From positions 69,048 to 133,047 of the forward strand of contig CALXYK010000004.1 of the NCBI GenBank assembly GCA_944392955.1: a stretch of 64,000 nucleotides of DNA, read 5' to 3'. The stretch comes from an uncultured Alphaproteobacteria bacterium. GTDB taxonomy: Bacteria > Pseudomonadota > Alphaproteobacteria > Rs-D84 > CACZYB01. The notes under the pieces were generated by a model, which had not been told where the DNA came from, made no database searches, and saw only the letters and a program-made list of their open reading frames with translations. Below, piece by piece: positions 12,180 to 18,175 of this stretch. The position numbers and the translations under genes were made by a program. Positions within the stretch are counted from its first letter, which is position 1. Each line of letters opens with the position of its first letter.

Positions 12180-12794
12180 ATGAAATTTATATATACTATA
12201 ACTATGATAATTAAACGTTTTATTTCTGGCCCATTAGAGAATAATAATTACCTCGTTATTGATGAAAGTACAAACGAAGGTGTTTTAATAGATTGCAGTG
12301 AAATATCAAACAAAATAGATTCATACATAAGTAATAATAAAATCAATTTAAAATATATATTACTAACTCATGCACATTTTGATCATATATTAGGTGTGGA
12401 TTTTTTCAGACAAAAATACAAACCTTCTGTCTTCCTTCATAAAGATGATAAAGATTTATTAAATATGCTTAACACTTTCATTCCTAAGGCAAAAATTCCA
12501 ACTATTGATACATTTTTTGATGAAAATTTACACTTACAAATTGGAAATATAGATATAAAGATAATACACACGCCTGGACATAGTAATGGTAGTTGTTGTT
12601 TTTTAATAAAAGACAATCTTTTTTCAGGGGACACCCTATTTTACAAAGGATACGGAAGAACAGATCTTCCATTTGGAAATGAAAATAATTTATTCAAAAG
12701 TTTAACCAAACTTTTTTTACTTCCAAACGAAACAAAGGTATTTCCCGGTCATGGCTTTGAAACCAGTATAAAACAGGAAAAGTCTATTTACTAA
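12180..12794 (+). CDS. MBL-fold metallo-hydrolase (glyoxalase II / beta-lactamase-like)
   Basis: The HxHxDH motif (THAHFDHILG) plus downstream His and Asp ligands (HTPGHS, GDTLF) are present. Confidence 0.7.
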   Translation: MKFIYTITMIIKRFISGPLENNNYLVIDESTNEGVLIDCSEISNKIDSYISNNKINLKYILLTHAHFDHILGVDFFRQKYKPSVFLHKDDKDLLNMLNTFIPKAKIPTIDTFFDENLHLQIGNIDIKIIHTPGHSNGSCCFLIKDNLFSGDTLFYKGYGRTDLPFGNENNLFKSLTKLFLLPNETKVFPGHGFETSIKQEKSIY

Positions 12795-15700
12795 AATAAA
12801 TAATTAATCCCTAACATAAATTGATTATTTTTATATTCTTCTTTGAAATCTGAAAAATATTTGAAATAAACATTAAAAGATGAATAAAAATCTAAATTAA
12901 GGTTTAATCCAACTGAATATTTATTTTTATAAATAGGCAAAGATTCAGAAATAAAGTCCAGATTCGTATTTTCAAAAGAGGCATTTAGTTTTACATTGTT
13001 ATCCGAAATCAACCTAGCATAAGAAATAAATAATTCTGGCCTCAAAGCAAAAGTCTCAAAATATTTTACAAAACTTACATTAAACGACACTGGAAGCTGA
13101 GCAATAAAAAAATCATCACTATCTATACATCTATTTAATCCCCCTGCTTGTGTCTCGCAAAAATCATCTGCTCTTACATATGAAATATCCGTTCCAATAC
13201 TAGGATACAAATTAAACTCATTCCAACTAAATAAATATCCCAAAGAAAAATAAGTATTTACTAAATTATTTGTAAAATTGGATTTTGCCACTAAATTAGA
13301 AGGCAATCTTGAAAAATCATACTCTGCACTACTAATAAAACTTGCAAATCCGAAACCATAATTTACAAATATTTTATCAAATTTTTTTGCTCCATACAAG
13401 GTCATATTATAAACATCTGTATCTACATCTAATATATTATCATTTGTTAAAAACGAAGAATTTCCTATAACAAAAGAAACTCCTAAAATATTATCATCAA
13501 ACATTTTATCAATACCAAAACTTACACCATTAAAATCATTTTTAAACCCATCAAAATCTCGAATATCATTTTGTGTAACATTAGAAAAAATAGGATAAAT
13601 CCAAAATCCGTTTTTATTTTCTCTTACATTTTCTAAAAAATTTGTCCTTGTTTTAGCAGGATTCAGTAAAAAATAATTCAATTCAGGAACAAATGATGAG
13701 AAAGTAGCATATTTTTCAACAGATAAATCATCTAAAACATATTTAAGTTGCCCAACAGAATCTACACCTGTATAGATAAAATTTATTGCATCATTTAATT
13801 CCATTTCTAAATTAAAATCATCATATAAATCATCTATTAAATTTGCAACTTGATACTCATTATAATTTAAACCTGCCACATCATTTATTTTCAGCAACGA
13901 AGGATTAACTATTATATACAAAACATGTTTTCCTGCATATTCTCCTTCTGTTTCCAATACCCACTGAGCAGTGTAATTTGTAAATAAACTATTTGTCAAA
14001 TCTAAGTGCTGAGATATACTAAGCGGATTATTGGTATCTTCTGAATCCGCAACTAAAATTGGGAATTTATTGCTTACTCCATCAATAATACGAGCATCAG
14101 AAACAGCCGCTATATAAGAATTTTCATTAAAACTAACTTTGCCACTAACAATAATTTTAGATTCAGCAGATGGCGAAAATGTCGTAGTCTGAGGGGATAT
14201 AATCGCTAAATAGCTTCCACCATTTTGTAAACTAAGATTTCCATCAATATTCAATATACTATTTATATTAGATGTTATATATCCACCATTACTAACATTA
14301 ACAGAATTTCCATTTAAGTTTATATTTCCATTTCCAAATAATAGTCCATTAACCATAATATCATTATCTGTATCTACAATAGCATTATCATATAACCCTA
14401 AAAAAGATCCTTCTAAAACATTTAATGTATTGGCATACAAAGAAGTATTTTGAACTTCAAGATTTCCTTTTGAACTTTTATCAAATATAGTTTGAGCAAA
14501 ACTATTTCCAACATTCAAAGTTCCCTCCACACTAAACGGCTGACTAAGTATCAATTTTGCATCATCAACAATATTAAACGAACCATTACCTGATAAATAA
14601 ATGCTTTCTTGTGGTTGCATATTCGCTCTTAAAAAAATACTTCCATTGTTCACAATGTTCTGAGCTAAAAAATTCCTCCACATAGAATTATCCTCAGACA
14701 TTATGTCCACAACAGCACCATTTGAAATAGATATATCCCCAATATCATACGAAATCCCAGGTATAGTATTCAACCCATAATAGAAGAAATAAGTTTGATC
14801 AGTAATATTTGTTCCAATATTATAAACAGAATTTGGGGCAAAAGTTAACCTTCCCCCATCATTAATATATACTTGCCCTGCATTATTAAATACAGAACCA
14901 ATATATAACCAACCTCCATCATTTATATTCAAGTTTGCATTATAAAAAGAAAATACGACATCATCTGATGAAGATAAAATAGAAAACATAGCACCATCTT
15001 CTATGGTTAAATTTTGATTTCTAAAATCCATCAAAACACTACCTGACAAAGAATTTACGACAAATTGTTTAAACGAAGCACTATTGCCAACTTCATAAGA
15101 ACTATTTCCAATCATATTTAAATCAGAAACGCCATAAGGATTTAAAAATAAAATTCTACTTAATTGACTACTACCATCATTTTCAATAATAATATTTGAT
15201 AATAAATTTTGCATAAAATTACTTGAAGATAAATTAAGTATATCTGAATATTGATTCAAAAAGATTTTACCAGTTTCAGAAGAAACATAAGAAGAAGCAT
15301 CTTCAAAAATTAAATAAGATCTATCATAAGGATAACTACTACCGCCAGTCAAAGATATACTACCATAATTTTCTAACAATGCTGTATCAAAATTTTCTAT
15401 CGCAGATGGATATGTATCATTGTAAACATCAGAAGCAGAAGATACAACATTTATATTTCCATATACATTATTTCTTAATAAAGAATAGGAATATAAATGA
15501 GAGTCTATCAAATTTAAATAAGAATTCCCGATGCCTCCATTTTCGTTTCCTATTATAAAACTTGTATCAGAGCCTAAAAAAATTTGCCCTATATTCCTAC
15601 TGGATAATTTATTACCATTCATATTCAAAACTGCCTGATTTCCAATTGACGAATATAAAAACACTTTTCCAAAATTAGATAAAGAAATTAATCCCCCCGG

Positions 15701-15931
15701 AACAACATTTAAATAAGTATTCAAACTACTATCTATCTTATCTTGAAATAGCAAAGTCCCATCATTTGTAATAATAAGTCCATTACTAGAAGGCATCTCT
15801 CCAACGCCACTTCCATCATTACTAATATAAGTAAGTGAACTATTAATAACAGAAGGCAATTGTGTATCTGCACGACAAATTTCTGAAAATGCTACCAATG
15901 CCAACAATAAAATGTACCTTAAATATTTCAT
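12791..15931 (-). CDS. Autotransporter (type Va) outer-membrane protein with a large Asn/Gly/Ser-rich beta-helical passenger
   Basis: A 1046-aa protein. The signal peptide is MKYLRYILLLALVAFSEICRA. The passenger region is repetitive (NxGxI/L-type beta-helix). The C-terminal ~280 aa has alternating hydrophobic beta-strands and ends in ...GINYLF, a terminal aromatic typical of beta-barrels. Confidence 0.7.
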   Translation of the reverse strand: MKYLRYILLLALVAFSEICRADTQLPSVINSSLTYISNDGSGVGEMPSSNGLIITNDGTLLFQDKIDSSLNTYLNVVPGGLISLSNFGKVFLYSSIGNQAVLNMNGNKLSSRNIGQIFLGSDTSFIIGNENGGIGNSYLNLIDSHLYSYSLLRNNVYGNINVVSSASDVYNDTYPSAIENFDTALLENYGSISLTGGSSYPYDRSYLIFEDASSYVSSETGKIFLNQYSDILNLSSSNFMQNLLSNIIIENDGSSQLSRILFLNPYGVSDLNMIGNSSYEVGNSASFKQFVVNSLSGSVLMDFRNQNLTIEDGAMFSILSSSDDVVFSFYNANLNINDGGWLYIGSVFNNAGQVYINDGGRLTFAPNSVYNIGTNITDQTYFFYYGLNTIPGISYDIGDISISNGAVVDIMSEDNSMWRNFLAQNIVNNGSIFLRANMQPQESIYLSGNGSFNIVDDAKLILSQPFSVEGTLNVGNSFAQTIFDKSSKGNLEVQNTSLYANTLNVLEGSFLGLYDNAIVDTDNDIMVNGLLFGNGNINLNGNSVNVSNGGYITSNINSILNIDGNLSLQNGGSYLAIISPQTTTFSPSAESKIIVSGKVSFNENSYIAAVSDARIIDGVSNKFPILVADSEDTNNPLSISQHLDLTNSLFTNYTAQWVLETEGEYAGKHVLYIIVNPSLLKINDVAGLNYNEYQVANLIDDLYDDFNLEMELNDAINFIYTGVDSVGQLKYVLDDLSVEKYATFSSFVPELNYFLLNPAKTRTNFLENVRENKNGFWIYPIFSNVTQNDIRDFDGFKNDFNGVSFGIDKMFDDNILGVSFVIGNSSFLTNDNILDVDTDVYNMTLYGAKKFDKIFVNYGFGFASFISSAEYDFSRLPSNLVAKSNFTNNLVNTYFSLGYLFSWNEFNLYPSIGTDISYVRADDFCETQAGGLNRCIDSDDFFIAQLPVSFNVSFVKYFETFALRPELFISYARLISDNNVKLNASFENTNLDFISESLPIYKNKYSVGLNLNLDFYSSFNVYFKYFSDFKEEYKNNQFMLGINYLF

Positions 15932-16153
15932 TCTTCCTCCCTAAAAAAATTATAAGAAAAGAAGAACAAAATACAACAATACAAAATTCCTATTGTAAAA
16001 AGCTTTTATTTCACCAAATTTTATTCAAAAATAATTAAAATTTTTAACTTAGGTTTAATTTAACTTACATCAGCATTTAAATTAACATTTATATATTACA
16101 AAAAAATCGCAAAACATCTGATTTTAACGTTTTATATTGTAATACAATTAAAA

Positions 16154-17572
16154 TTAAATATCTAATAACAACTTGTCGCTTATAATTTTATAAAAAGATA
16201 TTGACAACATAACTTTCTTGTGAATAAGACTACTGTAGGTTTCAAGACCCCCAGATTTGTTGCTGGAAGGTGTTTTCTTGGAACCTATTTCTTTTTGATT
16301 ATAAGACATTGGAATTAAATGTCTAGTAGCAACCTTATCAAGGAAGAAGTGAGCCATTTCGTGAGGTAGTGTTCCAAAGTTAAAGTTAGAACCTAGTACT
16401 ATTGCTTTTAATTCAGAATCAAAGAAGCCGTTTGCATTTTGATTTAGAATAGTGTCTTCTAAATTATTGTTGACATTAGTGTCTTGTGCTTTTGATAATT
16501 CTTTTATCCTATTTTTAATAGAATCACCAATTTTTAAATTAATTGTATTGACTTCTGTTTCTTTTGATTGTATATTAAAGTTATCAGCCCCTGATAAAGT
16601 GTCTTTGACGCGTTCGGGGGTTGTTTTAACTCTTACATTATATAAATCCAAGATGTTTTTATCTTGTCCTTTTACTTGTTCTGTTGCAAGTTCTACATCA
16701 TAATTTTTACCATTTATAATTATTGGACTTTTAAAATATATATATTTATCTATATTTGCTTTATGTTCTAAAGTTTCTTTTCTTGTATTATGTGATAAAT
16801 CTACATTTTCTTCATTTGTTTTAGTTGCATTATTTATTATTTTTTCAATACTATTAAGTGATGTTTGATGTCGTCTTTTTTGCCTATTATTTAATTTAAC
16901 ATTAGAGCGAATAACGTGTGCTTTATTTCCATCTGTAATTTGTATTTGTAAAGGTGGAGTAGATGTATCAAGAGGTTTTCCTATAAGTTCGTTGATATAC
17001 TTTTCAATATCTTTTTCTGTAATATTACCATCTTTAATATTTTTAAATTCTTCAGAAAGGTCTACTACATTACTACTTACTTCTCCTACTTCTTCTTGAA
17101 ACAGTATCTTTTCTACTGTATTGTCTACATCATTAGTATTCATAAAGACTGACTTAAGGTCCTTATCTGTAATTACTCCATCTTTGATTAAGCCGTCTGT
17201 TATAGAACTTTCTTGTAGAGTTTGAAGTGCTATATCTCTTTTTGTAAAAGAAATATTTTTTTTATTTTCTTTACGGCTCAATTTATCAACATAATTTTCT
17301 AAAAATTCTTGAGTTTGAACATCAGAACCGAATGTAAAAGCATAAAGTAAAGCATTAACATTTGTATCATTACCTACAACCATTGAAAAGTTTTCTTTGT
17401 TTGTATTTGGTAGTTTTGTTAAAACTTGTTGGAGTTCTTTGTTTAAATCTGTCTTTTTACCAATACTTACAATATCAGGAATGTTTGCTATGATATTTCT
17501 TTTTGCTACCGGTATTCTGTCTTCAAGTACTAAACTTTGATATAATGTTTTATTTTTAAGGATATTCGCCAT
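16154..17572 (-). CDS. Signal-less 472-aa protein with a C-terminal HExxH zinc-metallopeptidase-like motif (HEMAHFF); candidate secreted effector or toxin
   Basis: There is no signal peptide. The middle is long and charged. The C-terminal block GTLPHEMAHFFLDKVATRHLIP carries HExxH. Two DNA segments of this gene (16308-16334 and 16425-16485) recur in the upstream intergenic region (see pseudogene). It lies between an autotransporter and tRNA-Leu. Confidence 0.55.
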   Translation of the reverse strand: MANILKNKTLYQSLVLEDRIPVAKRNIIANIPDIVSIGKKTDLNKELQQVLTKLPNTNKENFSMVVGNDTNVNALLYAFTFGSDVQTQEFLENYVDKLSRKENKKNISFTKRDIALQTLQESSITDGLIKDGVITDKDLKSVFMNTNDVDNTVEKILFQEEVGEVSSNVVDLSEEFKNIKDGNITEKDIEKYINELIGKPLDTSTPPLQIQITDGNKAHVIRSNVKLNNRQKRRHQTSLNSIEKIINNATKTNEENVDLSHNTRKETLEHKANIDKYIYFKSPIIINGKNYDVELATEQVKGQDKNILDLYNVRVKTTPERVKDTLSGADNFNIQSKETEVNTINLKIGDSIKNRIKELSKAQDTNVNNNLEDTILNQNANGFFDSELKAIVLGSNFNFGTLPHEMAHFFLDKVATRHLIPMSYNQKEIGSKKTPSSNKSGGLETYSSLIHKKVMLSISFYKIISDKLLLDI

Positions 17573-17599
17573 AACTGCATTTGTTCTTCTAGTTATTGC

Positions 17600-17968
17600 A
17601 GTTGCCGTTTGCGTTTTGATTTAGAATAGTGTCTTCTATATTATTGTTGACATTAGTTTTTAATTCATTTATTATGAAATTAAGACCAGAGAGGGTGTCA
17701 GTGGTATCATTTGATACTGAGCCAAAATTACTAGAATCTGACGCAGGCACTCTGGCTTTTTCTATTTTAAAAGCACTAGTTATTTTATTTTGACCACCAC
17801 TTTGAGTTATTATAAATCTGTATGATGTATCATTGTGTATTGTTTCTAAAACAATATTTTTATCTCCATAATAGTTTTTTCTATTTGTAATTTCTCCATA
17901 AACAATATTATCTAAACTATTTATAGCATTTTATTATAACATATTGGAATTAAATGTCTAGTAGCAAC
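17600..17968 (-). pseudogene. Decayed, rearranged paralog fragment of the adjacent HExxH-protein gene
   Basis: Segment 17607-17660 is nearly identical to 16425-16485 (gccgtttgcNttttgatttagaatagtgtcttctaNattattgttgacattagt). Segment 17944-17968 matches 16310-16334 (ggaattaaatgtctagtagcaac, encoding VATRHLIP). On the minus strand the ~100-aa open frame ...TDTLSGLNFIINELKTNVNNNIEDTILNQNANGNCNN* parallels the gene's DTLSG...TNVNNNLEDTILNQNANG but has no start codon. The two matching segments sit in inverted order compared with the intact gene. Confidence 0.5.
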
Positions 17969-18084
17969 ACATAATTTTCAAACAAAATAAACACTATCAA
18001 TTATCCCTTATAACACAATCCCGAAACACAAAATTTATTATATAAACTAATAGAAATAAAATCGAAAAATCAGAGATTTTGAAA

Positions 18085-18175
18085 TGGTGCAGATGGCCGG
18101 AATCGAACCGGCACGGGCGTTTGAATGCCCGAGGGATTTTAAGTCCCTTGCGTCTACCTGTTCCGCCACATCTGC
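18085..18175 (-). tRNA. tRNA-Leu (anticodon TAA), long variable arm
   Basis: The reverse complement reads GCAGATG-TG-GCGGAACAGGTAGACGC-A-AGGGA-CTTAAAA-TCCCT-(long V-arm CGGGCATTCAAACGCCCGTG)-CCGGTTCGATTCCGG-CCATCTGC-A-CCA. The anticodon loop CTTAAAA gives anticodon TAA. Confidence 0.85.

What the first reader, a model, noticed from the sequence alone, without database searches (positions are those of the whole stretch)
17573..17970. Scrambled duplicate fragments of the HExxH gene immediately upstream of it
Segment 17607-17660 matches 16425-16485 (~54 nt, 3 mismatches) and 17944-17968 matches 16310-16334 (25/25). In the intact gene the order along the coding strand is segment A then B. In the remnant it is B then A, separated by about 280 bp. 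On the minus strand the remnant still holds a ~100-aa open frame ending ...DTLSG...TNVNNNIEDTILNQNANG-NCNN*, which is a recognisably homologous but diverged peptide without a start codon. This indicates past tandem duplication followed by deletion and rearrangement, or an alternate-C-terminus cassette as seen at polymorphic toxin loci.
Basis: seen in the sequence. Interest (0 to 1): 0.5.

Follow-up and report, generated by a model that had tools for sequence, protein, structure and literature searches.

The report
Phage-type gene fragment trapped between CRISPR repeats
One of the two "duplicated gene pieces" is really a CRISPR repeat: this spot is a decayed CRISPR immune locus where about 1.6 kb of a mobile-element gene lies exactly between two repeats, in the place of a normal 30-base spacer.

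Summary
Both repeat pairs are real, but they are different things.

**Pair A** (17933-17968 and 16298-16333) is not part of the HExxH gene. It is the 36-nt repeat of a type II-C CRISPR system. A strain 99% identical in the flanks (L016) has the same tRNA-Leu and leader, then 14 such repeats, then cas2-cas1-cas9.

**Pair B** (17604-17657 and 16427-16480) is a conserved linker, ..EDTILNQNANG. In relatives it joins an upstream module to an HExxH module in polyvalent or MuF-type mobile-element proteins.

**The sequence between the repeats.** All mobile-element homology lies in 17930-16334, flush with both repeat edges. It has two parts:
- the 3' end of a MuF_C-like gene;
- 413 codons of an LPD3 gene cut 4 residues after HEMAH.

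The 472-aa ORF is a chimera. It reads on through the second repeat and stops in a third, degenerate copy.

**Recurrence.** An unrelated genome (L024) with intact cas genes has a homologous fragment running flush into its own single repeat.

**Origin.** I infer recombination anchored on former spacers. Site-specific integration into the repeats and aberrant Cas1-Cas2 integration are not excluded.

Scrambled duplication and a toxin-cassette locus are not supported. This is a new variant of known interplay between CRISPR arrays and mobile elements.

The parts
18085..18175 (-). tRNA-Leu(UAA). It marks one edge of the strain-variable island.
   Evidence: ARAGORN and Rfam. The same tRNA precedes the intact array in L016.
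17969..18084 (-). Sequence between the tRNA and the first repeat, the array-flanking 'leader' side.
   Evidence: The 54 nt next to the repeat read identically in the window and in L016 just before its 14-repeat array. L016 is 99.0% identical to the window across 20374->17929.
17933..17968 (-). R1: a CRISPR repeat, GTTGCTACTAGACATTTAATTCCAATATGTTATAAT.
   Evidence: 36/36 identical to every repeat of the arrays in L016-L022. It sits at the same position as the first repeat of L016. It contains TAGACA-16 nt-TATAAT preceded by TG.
17589..17932 (-). Remnant X: the 3' part of a MuF_C-like module gene, its linker, and then the stop (..NQNANGNCNN*). It has no start codon.
   Evidence: Translation. It is 59% identical over residues 1-95 to P0068 (E 1.3e-23), a protein with a weak MuF_C match followed by a HELGH motif. 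tblastn homology starts at 17930, 2 nt from R1.
17604..17657 (-). D2b: the linker copy encoding TNVNNNIEDTILNQNANG.
   Evidence: The string NVNNNIEDTILNQNANG is identical in homologue P0005.
16334..17572 (-). 413 codons of a polyvalent-type gene: N region, LPD3, linker, and the first part of the HExxH module, ending ..HEMAHFFLDK.
   Evidence: ORF. Homologues P0002, P0005, P0006 and P0008 align up to exactly 16334 and then continue NFKIW.. where the window switches to repeat-encoded VATRHL.
16676..17014 (-). LPD3 domain, residues 187-299 of the ORF.
   Evidence: Pfam PF18798, 29.2 bits against a gathering cut-off of 27.
16427..16480 (-). D2a: the linker copy encoding TNVNNNLEDTILNQNANG, followed by the HExxH module.
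16349..16363 (-). HEMAH motif. The module is cut 4 residues later, so the rest of the metallopeptidase fold is missing.
   Evidence: Sequence. There is only a weak DUF6782 metallopeptidase hit, E 0.025. Relatives continue for more than 100 residues.
16298..16333 (-). R2: a CRISPR repeat, 34/36 identical to R1 (..ATGTCTTATAAT).
   Evidence: The same variant, with the same downstream DNA, is present in strains that lack the relic (L009, L014, L023).
16154..16333 (-). Read-through tail of the 472-aa ORF: 59 codons plus the stop, encoded by R2, the 125-bp stretch and R3. It is not mobile-element sequence.
16136..16172 (-). R3: a third, strongly degenerate repeat-like copy. It contains the ORF's stop codon.
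   Evidence: 24/36 ungapped identity; 63% member of repeat family D1. About 1 hit this good is expected per shuffled window, so its support is mainly that it lies 161 bp from R2 in the same orientation. It is conserved in L009, L014 and L023.

Best explanation
**What it is.** The region is the decayed remnant of a type II-C CRISPR locus lying in a strain-variable island between tRNA-Leu and an autotransporter gene.

A third, degenerate copy (R3) lies 161 bp beyond R2.
- Where a 30-nt spacer would sit there are 1,599 bp of mobile-element DNA (17932->16334). This is the 3' end of a MuF_C-like gene followed by 413 codons of an LPD3-plus-HExxH polyvalent-type gene.
- 'Segment B' is the conserved linker that both pieces carry just before where an HExxH module is attached.
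- The 472-aa 'HExxH gene' is therefore a chimeric, truncated ORF. It runs out of the mobile-element fragment, through R2, and stops in R3.

**How it arose (inferred).** Mobile-element DNA entered a working array by homologous recombination anchored on spacers that matched the element. This makes the insert ends flush with the repeat edges. Repeat-repeat recombination and allele replacement then removed the other spacers and, in this strain, cas9-cas1-cas2.

**Present state (inferred).** It is most likely a scar without immune function. No cas gene or tracrRNA anti-repeat is present in the window. Each repeat still carries a near-consensus promoter pointing into the downstream DNA, so the fragment may be transcribed.

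The identity of the parts is shown. The route of entry is inferred, at about 0.4.
For: **Pair A is a CRISPR repeat.**
- Its 26-nt core occurs in metagenome contigs as arrays with a 66-bp period and 29-31-nt spacers, next to cas2, cas1 and the 3' end of a cas9 gene.
- NCBI names a member of that Cas1 cluster 'type II CRISPR-associated endonuclease Cas1'. PADLOC calls the 1119-aa neighbour Cas9.
- Only cas9, cas1 and cas2 lie next to the array in L017-L022, and a repeat-like anti-repeat lies upstream of cas9.

**The locus is the same one.**
- L016 is 99.0% identical to the window from PGM through Ffh, tRNA-Leu and the leader to R1. It then has 14 repeats identical to R1, a terminator, and cas2-cas1-cas9.

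**The insert is mobile-element DNA, flush with the repeats.**
- LPD3 scores above Pfam's cut-off.
- The homologues are fragments of MuF_C, ART-PolyVal and HExxH proteins.
- Remnant X matches P0068.
- tblastn of 16 relatives hits only 17930->16334. Four of them end exactly at 16334.
- In strain L006, R1 is followed 1 nt later by a different truncated MuF_C module.

**There is an independent second case.**
- In L024, homologue P0008 runs in frame into a single 36-nt repeat of a different sequence.
- That repeat is followed by a hairpin and T-run, as after the last repeat of the other arrays, and then by cas2-cas1-cas9.
- It is matched 29/36 by an anti-repeat upstream of cas9.
- P0008 departs from P0002 at the first base of the repeat.

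**Supporting points.**
- Repeat promoters: TAGACA-16 nt-TATAAT in R1 (with TG) and in R2. Promoters inside repeats are documented for type II-C arrays (PMC5965381).
- Recombination-prone arrays: relatives show tandem duplications of 4-spacer blocks.
- Precedent for spacer-to-phage recombination: Varble 2019, as cited in bioRxiv 10.1101/2020.10.09.333658.
Against: **Against the proposed route of entry.**
- None of 103 distinct spacers from related arrays matches the relic, its relatives' DNA, or GenBank phages. So there is no direct sign that these arrays ever carried spacers against this element.
- The first 30 nt after R1 and the last 30 nt before R2 differ. A single Campbell-type crossover is therefore not enough. 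Two spacers, or later deletions, must be assumed.
- R2 and R3 are shared with alleles that lack the relic, and their origin relative to the L016 array is unknown. The autotransporter side of the CRISPR-positive allele could not be retrieved.

**Against 'non-functional scar'.**
- The relic ORF is intact in two strains with pN/pS about 0.14 (15 synonymous and 8 non-synonymous changes).
- Its pS is 0.064, against 0.03-0.06 in flanking genes.
- This could mean it is a functional gene rather than a scar, or that two related elements were captured separately.

**Limits.**
- The source element is unknown. There are no tblastn hits in phage, plasmid or IMG/VR collections.
- cas genes elsewhere in this genome cannot be excluded from a 64-kb window.
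Confidence: 0.72

Rival explanations
1. A mobile element that uses the CRISPR repeat as its attachment or target site integrated here and then decayed to 1.6 kb. Known models are the PhiAP1.1 prophage of S. pyogenes and the array-targeting Tn7-like elements.
For: - Both kinds of element are documented.
- Natural PhiAP1.1 lysogens often retain only a single degenerate repeat, as L024 does.
- Cycles of integration and excision erase arrays, which fits the loss of spacers here.
- The locus lies next to a tRNA gene, and another allele carries a resolvase.
Against: - R1 (36/36) and R2 (34/36) are whole repeats, not halves split around a short core.
- No integrase or transposase remains in the relic.
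- The element gene is cut at four different places at repeat edges: two different points within MuF_C-like modules, HExxH + 4 residues, and about 130 residues beyond the HExxH motif. A fixed element end would give one place.
- Neither repeat occurs in IMG/VR viral contigs.
Confidence: 0.15
2. Cas1-Cas2 integrated an untrimmed, kilobase-long DNA fragment as a 'giant spacer'.
For: Integration by Cas1-Cas2 would by its nature place both insert ends flush with repeat edges, as seen. L024 still has cas1 and cas2.
Against: - I know of no precedent for kilobase spacers (own knowledge). All 103 distinct spacers extracted from related arrays are 29-31 nt.
- In the type II-C systems tested, new spacers enter at the cas2-proximal end (PMC6008519). 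R1 is at the cas2-distal end of the array in L016.
- R2 differs from R1 and pre-exists in alleles without the relic, so it is not a fresh repeat duplication.
Confidence: 0.08
3. One reading: the HExxH gene was duplicated in tandem and the copy was then deleted and scrambled, or it is an orphan alternative C-terminal cassette as at polymorphic-toxin loci.
For: - Pair B is a genuine 54-nt duplicate of a coding linker.
- Both flanking pieces come from the same protein family.
- The linker is a module-swap point in relatives.
Against: - Segment A is a CRISPR repeat, so no order inversion exists.
- The remnant shares only 18 residues with the gene.
- It lies upstream of the gene, has no recognisable toxin domain or neighbouring immunity gene, and is flanked by repeats rather than further cassettes.
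Confidence: 0.04
4. The 472-aa ORF is a domesticated, expressed gene driven by the promoter inside R1, not a scar.
For: - The ORF is intact in two strains.
- pN/pS is about 0.14, with synonymous divergence within about 2-fold of the flanking genes.
- A near-consensus extended -10 promoter lies in R1.
Against: - The HExxH module is cut 4 residues after the motif, and the C-terminal 59 residues are encoded by CRISPR repeat and spacer-like DNA.
- No clear ribosome-binding site precedes the ATG.
- It is absent from other strains of the species.
- The low pN/pS can equally come from divergence within the pool of mobile elements before separate captures. The left ends differ between the strains.
Confidence: 0.1
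5. Assembly artefact: contigs were mis-joined at the shared 36-40-nt repeat.
For: The repeats are short, shared sequences, and coverage in the metagenome assemblies is low (about 3.5-4.7x from the contig names).
Against: - The same arrangement is in another assembly record, L001.
- The R1-to-relic junction is also present in L006 and L007 from two further samples.
- The R2-to-autotransporter junction is present in L009, L014 and L023.
- Only the ..FFLDK|R2 junction rests on two records alone.
Confidence: 0.03

Closest known systems
Type II-C CRISPR-Cas arrays with promoters inside the repeats (Neisseria meningitidis, Campylobacter jejuni)
   Same: - 36-nt repeats beginning GTTG.. and ending in an extended -10-like TGnTAnAAT.
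- Spacers of about 30 nt in sister loci.
- Only cas9-cas1-cas2, lying convergent with the array.
- An anti-repeat upstream of cas9.
(PMC5965381)
   Different: In the window only two good repeats and one degenerate repeat remain. They are 1,635 and 161 bp apart instead of 66. No cas genes or anti-repeat are present.
PhiAP1.1-type prophage integration into CRISPR repeats (S. pyogenes, type II-A)
   Same: Mobile-element DNA sits inside a type II array. Natural cases often retain a single repeat and have lost their spacers.
   Different: There the repeat is split around an 8-bp attachment core and a whole prophage with an integrase is present. Here the repeats are whole, the insert is a 1.6-kb gene fragment, and the cut points in the element gene vary.
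Recombination between phages and matching CRISPR spacers (Varble et al. 2019 and Watson et al. 2018, as cited)
   Same: Uses spacer-to-protospacer identity as the homology for joining element DNA to the array. It predicts element DNA abutting the repeats.
   Different: That process was shown experimentally as a route for transducing CRISPR loci. I did not find a description of natural chromosomal 'fossils' with kilobase inserts between repeats. No matching spacer was found here.
Tn7-like transposons that target CRISPR arrays (Cyanobacteria)
   Same: Elements inserted at defined positions in arrays.
   Different: Those insert at a fixed position inside the spacer and carry tns genes. Nothing of that kind is present here.
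Polyvalent proteins of phages and conjugative elements (Iyer et al. 2017) and MuF-type polymorphic phage proteins
   Same: LPD3, MuF_C, ART-PolyVal and HExxH modules in shuffled combinations. Several metallopeptidase modules per protein are common.
   Different: The window holds only truncated pieces in a chromosomal, non-element context. The HExxH module is not recognised by a Pfam model above its threshold.

Membership tests
CRISPR array (type II-C) | Identical direct repeats of about 36 nt, regularly spaced by unique spacers of about 30 nt | tested here: not met
   The window has R1, R2 and R3 at 1,635-bp and 161-bp spacing. The feature is met in sister loci with the same repeat: L016 has 14 repeats, L017-L022 have 5-26, and L010-L012 carry a variant differing at 2 of 36 positions. 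The window is therefore a degenerate remnant, not an array.
CRISPR array (type II-C) | Adjacent cas9-cas1-cas2 without csn2 or cas4 | tested here: not met
   There are no cas hits in the window (tblastn; ORF list). The feature is met at the same locus in strain L016 and in L017-L022 and L024.
CRISPR array (type II-C) | A tracrRNA anti-repeat complementary to the repeat | tested here: not met
   It is present upstream of cas9 in L017-L022 (26/36) and L024 (29/36). The window has no repeat-like sequence in the required orientation.
CRISPR array (type II-C) | Promoter elements embedded in each repeat | tested here: inconclusive
   TAGACA-16 nt-TATAAT in R1 (with TG) and in R2. This is a consensus match only, with no transcript data.
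Polyvalent protein (Iyer et al. 2017) | Recognised polyvalent-associated domains (LPD, MuF_C, ART-PolyVal) | tested here: met
   LPD3 scores 29.2 bits against a cut-off of 27. Homologues carry MuF_C and ART-PolyVal.
Polyvalent protein (Iyer et al. 2017) | A complete zincin-like metallopeptidase module (the HExxH helix plus a downstream Glu helix) | tested here: not met
   The module is cut 4 residues after HEMAH at the R2 edge. Only a weak DUF6782 hit is found.
Polyvalent protein (Iyer et al. 2017) | A large multidomain protein encoded in a phage or conjugative element | tested here: not met
   There are 413 derived codons in a chromosomal island with no element genes around them. No match was found in phage, plasmid or viral collections.
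Polymorphic toxin locus with orphan C-terminal cassettes | A full-length toxin gene followed downstream by immunity genes and orphan CT-immunity cassettes that share the pre-toxin junction | tested here: not met
   The remnant is upstream of the gene. No toxin or immunity domains are recognisable, and the flanks are CRISPR repeats.
Repeat-targeting integrative element (PhiAP1.1-like or Tn7-like) | A recombinase or transposase, plus an attachment core or fixed insertion point that leaves split or offset repeats | tested here: not met
   No such gene is present, the repeats are whole, and the cut points in the element gene vary.

The most novel reading that the evidence does not exclude
Type II-C arrays in this group of AT-rich bacteria, known so far only from metagenome assemblies, may repeatedly capture kilobase-long pieces of invading mobile-element genes precisely between repeats. 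The route would be spacer-guided recombination or the adaptation machinery itself. The 20-30 nt next to the downstream repeat would still act as a guide against that element family, for example in L024, which keeps cas9, the tracrRNA anti-repeat and one repeat. Such inserts would then be natural fossils of CRISPR-promoted recombination and a route by which arrays are eroded or replaced.
Probability: 0.3. Interest if true: 0.7.

Novelty: new variant of a known kind. Interest (0 to 1): 0.55.

Why it matters
It replaces a puzzling 'scrambled duplicate' with a concrete structure: a mobile-element gene fragment sitting in the place of a spacer in a collapsing CRISPR locus.

Within one species (flanks about 99% identical) the same tRNA-Leu site holds four alternatives:
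[quoted passage not shown] - a surface-polysaccharide island;
- this relic.

The site therefore gives a snapshot of how defence loci are gained, invaded and lost.

The flush junctions recur in an unrelated genome that still has its cas genes. If they reflect spacer-anchored recombination, they are natural evidence for a process so far shown mainly in the laboratory. Array finders that expect 20-60-nt spacers would miss them.

The case also matters for annotation. The 472-aa 'HExxH protein' is a chimera whose last 59 residues are encoded by CRISPR repeats and the DNA between them.

Tried and rejected
- **R3 as a tracrRNA anti-repeat.** I tested whether R3 plus the 125-bp stretch is a tracrRNA gene left behind after loss of cas9. 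Rejected: in L017-L022 and L024 the anti-repeat has the opposite orientation relative to the array, and no tail homology exists.
- **Pair A as an attachment site derived from the tRNA.** It has no similarity to the tRNA and turned out to be a CRISPR repeat.
- **Remnant X as a diverged LPD3.** Rejected by hhalign. X is a MuF_C-like module.
- **PF18819 as the metallopeptidase.** I first took it for that. It is MuF_C and maps to the module upstream of the linker.
- **Spacers matching the relic or its relatives.** I compared 103 distinct spacers against the window, the island alleles, the L024 and L002 fragments and GenBank phages. There was no match longer than 19 nt.
- **Source element.** tblastn of the 472-aa protein against phages and plasmids, and a pattern plus tblastn scan of IMG/VR, found nothing. 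Neither repeat, nor the linker of pair B, occurs in IMG/VR.
- **Word-index search with remnant X.** It found nothing. Only the full HMMER scan did.
- **Array polarity from shared spacers.** Inconclusive.
- **Two 'long spacers' in L017 and L021.** These are scaffold gaps.
- **A contig look-up with a protein translated from L003.** All 12 context look-ups are used, so three things remain unseen:
  - the autotransporter side of the CRISPR-positive allele;
  - the gap in the L006/L004 allele;
  - the contexts of P0004, P0006, P0007 and P0061.
Full report
**1. The observation**

Both repeat pairs exist.
- Pair B is 16427-16480 against 17604-17657: 54 nt with 2 mismatches, or 67 nt at 88%.
- Pair A is 16308-16333 against 17943-17968: 26/26, or 40 nt at 93%.
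- Each occurs exactly twice in the window and never in 100 shuffles.

The start-less open frame of 113 codons ending ..NQNANGNCNN* is also real. It resembles the 472-aa ORF only in the 18 residues of pair B. An hhalign comparison of the rest with an LPD3 alignment gives a probability of 0.2%. Another assembly record, L001, has the same arrangement and is identical over 2.6 kb.

**2. What the gene is**

ORF 16154-17572 (minus strand, 472 aa) matches Pfam LPD3, a 'large polyvalent protein-associated domain', above the curated cut-off.

It has very few relatives, all of them fragments on short metagenome contigs. These combine the same N-terminal region, LPD3, MuF_C, ART-PolyVal and an HExxH module in different orders. 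This mosaicism is the hallmark of the polyvalent proteins of phages and conjugative elements. In those proteins metallopeptidase modules are the commonest domain and often occur several times per protein (PMC5512222).

In every relative the HExxH module continues ..HEMAHFFLDK-NFKIW.. (or -TFELW.. in L002). The window instead switches after K413 to VATRHLIPMSYNQ.., which is the translation of pair A.

**3. Pair A is a CRISPR repeat**

A scan of metagenome contigs with the 26-nt core found it as arrays with a strict 66-bp period. These have 36-nt repeats and 29-31-nt unique spacers. They lie next to convergent cas2, cas1 and the 3' end of a cas9 gene. NCBI names a member of that Cas1 cluster 'type II CRISPR-associated endonuclease Cas1'.

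Longer contigs, several of them named for human (Hadza) gut metagenome samples, show the following:
- cas9 (1119 aa, called Cas9 by PADLOC), cas1 and cas2, with no other cas gene next to the array. This is the type II-C gene set.
- 5-26 repeats identical to the window's upstream copy.
- A repeat-like anti-repeat upstream of cas9.

**4. It is the same locus**

Contig L016 is 99.0% identical to the window from the PGM gene through Ffh, tRNA-Leu and the 'leader' up to R1. Homology ends at 17929. L016 then carries 14 repeats, each 36/36 identical to R1, then a terminator, then cas2-cas1-cas9.

- R1 (17968->17933) is therefore the first repeat of that array, in place.
- R2 (16333->16298) is a 34/36 copy.
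- A third, degenerate copy R3 (16172->16136, 24/36) lies 161 bp further on and holds the ORF's stop codon.
- The window has no cas homologues and no anti-repeat.

**5. Anatomy of the insert**

tblastn with 16 relatives hits only 17930->16334. Four relatives end exactly at 16334, the base before R2, and P0068 starts 2 nt after R1. So 1,599 bp of mobile-element DNA fill the space between two whole repeats.

The upstream piece (remnant X) is 59% identical to P0068 (E 1e-23). P0068 has a weak MuF_C match followed by a linker and a HELGH motif.

Pair B is the linker ..N(V/I)NNN(I/L)EDTILNQNANG. In relatives it precedes the HExxH module.

In both the window and strain L006 the first copy of the linker is followed by NCNN*, a 19-nt gap, and then ATG..MANILK. 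The simplest reading is one contiguous piece of an element: the 3' end of a MuF-like gene plus the 5' 413 codons of the next gene. Nothing is scrambled once pair A is recognised as foreign to the gene.

**6. Strain comparison**

The flanks are about 99% identical between strains, but the tRNA-Leu to autotransporter gap has at least four alleles.

| Allele | Loci | Content |
|---|---|---|
| A | L016 | Intact CRISPR-Cas |
| B | L008 + L009, L014, L023 | Resolvase, sulfatase and Stealth genes at one end; SIS, HAD and epimerase genes at the other. Starts at 18001 and ends flush at the 5' edge of R2 |
| C | L006/L007 + L003/L004 | R1, then a different truncated MuF_C module (Y) starting 1 nt after the repeat, then the same downstream gene. 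Further on, a type III R-M system, a DrmD-like SNF2 helicase and PDC-S32. Joins the backbone at 16047 |
| D | window, L001 | The relic described here |

X and Y match the same Pfam family (MuF_C), X only weakly through P0068. They are cut at different positions in the module.

**7. An independent second case**

L024 comes from a different genome context and has a different, larger Cas9 (1302 aa).
- Homologue P0008 (466 aa) occupies the array position.
- It runs in frame into a single 36-nt repeat of different sequence, GTTGCGAATTGACTAAAATTTCCTATATGCTATAAT.
- That repeat is followed by a hairpin and T-run, as after the last repeat of the other arrays, and then by cas2-cas1-cas9.
- An anti-repeat matching 29/36 lies upstream of cas9, which confirms that this is that system's repeat.
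- P0008 departs from P0002 at the first base of the repeat (..DERIER|LRID*).

Four junctions between element DNA and a repeat therefore lie within 3 nt of a repeat edge: R1|X, R1|Y, ..FFLDK|R2 and the L024 junction. Each cuts the element gene at a different place. With random breakpoints in a 66-bp unit, I estimate roughly 15% chance per junction, so about 5e-4 for all four.

**8. Mechanism**

*Shown:* the identity of the repeats, the mobile-element origin of the insert, the flush junctions, the allelic CRISPR-Cas locus and the recurrence.

*Inferred, about 0.4:* entry by homologous recombination anchored on spacers that matched the element.
- This automatically gives element DNA abutting whole repeats, with cut points that vary.
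- The repeat-proximal 3' end is left as a usable guide that is protected from self-targeting, because a repeat rather than a PAM follows it.
- Spacer-to-phage recombination is documented (Varble 2019 and Watson 2018, cited).
- Arrays of relatives show block duplications, which indicates active recombination between repeats.

*Against it:*
- No spacer matching the element family was found among 103.
- The two insert ends are not the same 30-mer, so two spacers or later deletions must be assumed.

*Rivals:*
- Site-specific integration into repeats, as for PhiAP1.1 or array-targeting Tn7-like elements. The repeats here are whole, no recombinase remains and the cut points vary.
- Aberrant integration by Cas1-Cas2. 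There is no precedent that I know of. R1 is at the cas2-distal end, whereas type II-C acquisition was seen at the cas2-proximal end. R2 also pre-exists in alleles without the relic.
- Misassembly, which is unlikely.

The loss of cas genes and spacers in this strain fits repeat-mediated deletion or allele replacement in a defence-island hot spot.

**9. Present function**

Each repeat carries TAGACA-16 nt-TATAAT, and R1 also has the extended TG. This is the arrangement that drives crRNA transcription from within the repeats of type II-C arrays (PMC5965381). The fragment and the chimeric ORF may therefore be transcribed, and R2 and R3 point toward the autotransporter gene.

The ORF is intact in two strains with pN/pS about 0.14 and pS 0.064, against 0.03-0.06 in flanking genes. 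This is compatible with selection in the host. It is equally compatible with divergence among elements before separate captures, because the left ends differ.

The catalytic module is cut 4 residues after HEMAH, and the tail is encoded by repeats and the DNA between them. I therefore favour a non-functional scar, and give domestication about 0.1.

**10. Verdict**

The feature is a degenerate type II-C CRISPR locus with a fragment of a mobile-element gene trapped between two repeats. This is a new variant of known interplay between CRISPR arrays and mobile elements. It is of moderate interest because of the flush junctions, the recurrence and the within-species allelic series.

Noticed in passing
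window 16047-18001; loci L003/L004, L006/L007, L008/L009, L014, L016, L023: The tRNA-Leu to autotransporter gap is a within-species hot spot (flanks about 99% identical) with four alleles: intact type II-C CRISPR-Cas; a type III R-M system plus a DrmD-like SNF2 helicase plus PDC-S32; a resolvase-linked sulfatase/Stealth/SIS/HAD/epimerase island; and the relic.
   Followed up: partly
L024 6104-7524: In an unrelated genome, a 466-aa polyvalent fragment (P0008) fills the array position next to intact cas2-cas1-cas9 and reads in frame into that system's single remaining repeat. No upstream repeat is detectable.
   Followed up: partly
window 16427-16480 and 17604-17657; proteins P0061, P0002, P0005: The linker ..EDTILNQNANG is a recurrent breakpoint. 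P0061 departs from P0002 after ..NQNA into unrelated sequence. The window and L006 end 4 residues after it. The upstream module differs between strains, with the crossover at about 17640.
   Followed up: partly
window 16136-16333, upstream of the autotransporter gene 12791-15931: R2 and R3 carry sigma-70-like promoter matches pointing at the autotransporter gene (11/12 and 9/12 hexamer matches). Strains L003 and L004 lack this stretch, so it cannot be the gene's only promoter.
   Followed up: no
L019 and L021 arrays: Arrays of relatives contain tandem duplications of 4-spacer blocks: spacers 39-42 twice in L019 and 24-27 twice in L021. This points to frequent recombination between repeats.
   Followed up: no
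L003 and L004, 1,576 bp beyond the start of each locus: Contigs from two different samples and assemblies both stop at the same point, just upstream of the 907-aa type III restriction enzyme gene. This suggests a repeat or a strain-variable junction there.
   Followed up: no
window 12180-12794 (+): A 204-aa metallo-beta-lactamase-fold protein next to the autotransporter gene carries a precomputed Pfam hit to Anti-Pycsar_Apyc1, a family named after a phage counter-defence enzyme, here in a chromosomal context.
   Followed up: no
window 16334-17572 against L006 12009-13165: The relic ORF shows 15 synonymous and 8 non-synonymous differences between two strains (pN/pS about 0.14), plus an in-frame 23-codon length difference in the linker region. 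Five of the non-synonymous changes cluster at the start of the linker.
   Followed up: partly
L002 9182-10210: Another truncated polyvalent fragment with an HExxH module lies in an Alphaproteobacteria MAG beside a 348-aa and a 227-aa ORF that I did not identify, with no CRISPR repeat nearby. Relics of this family are therefore not confined to arrays.
   Followed up: partly
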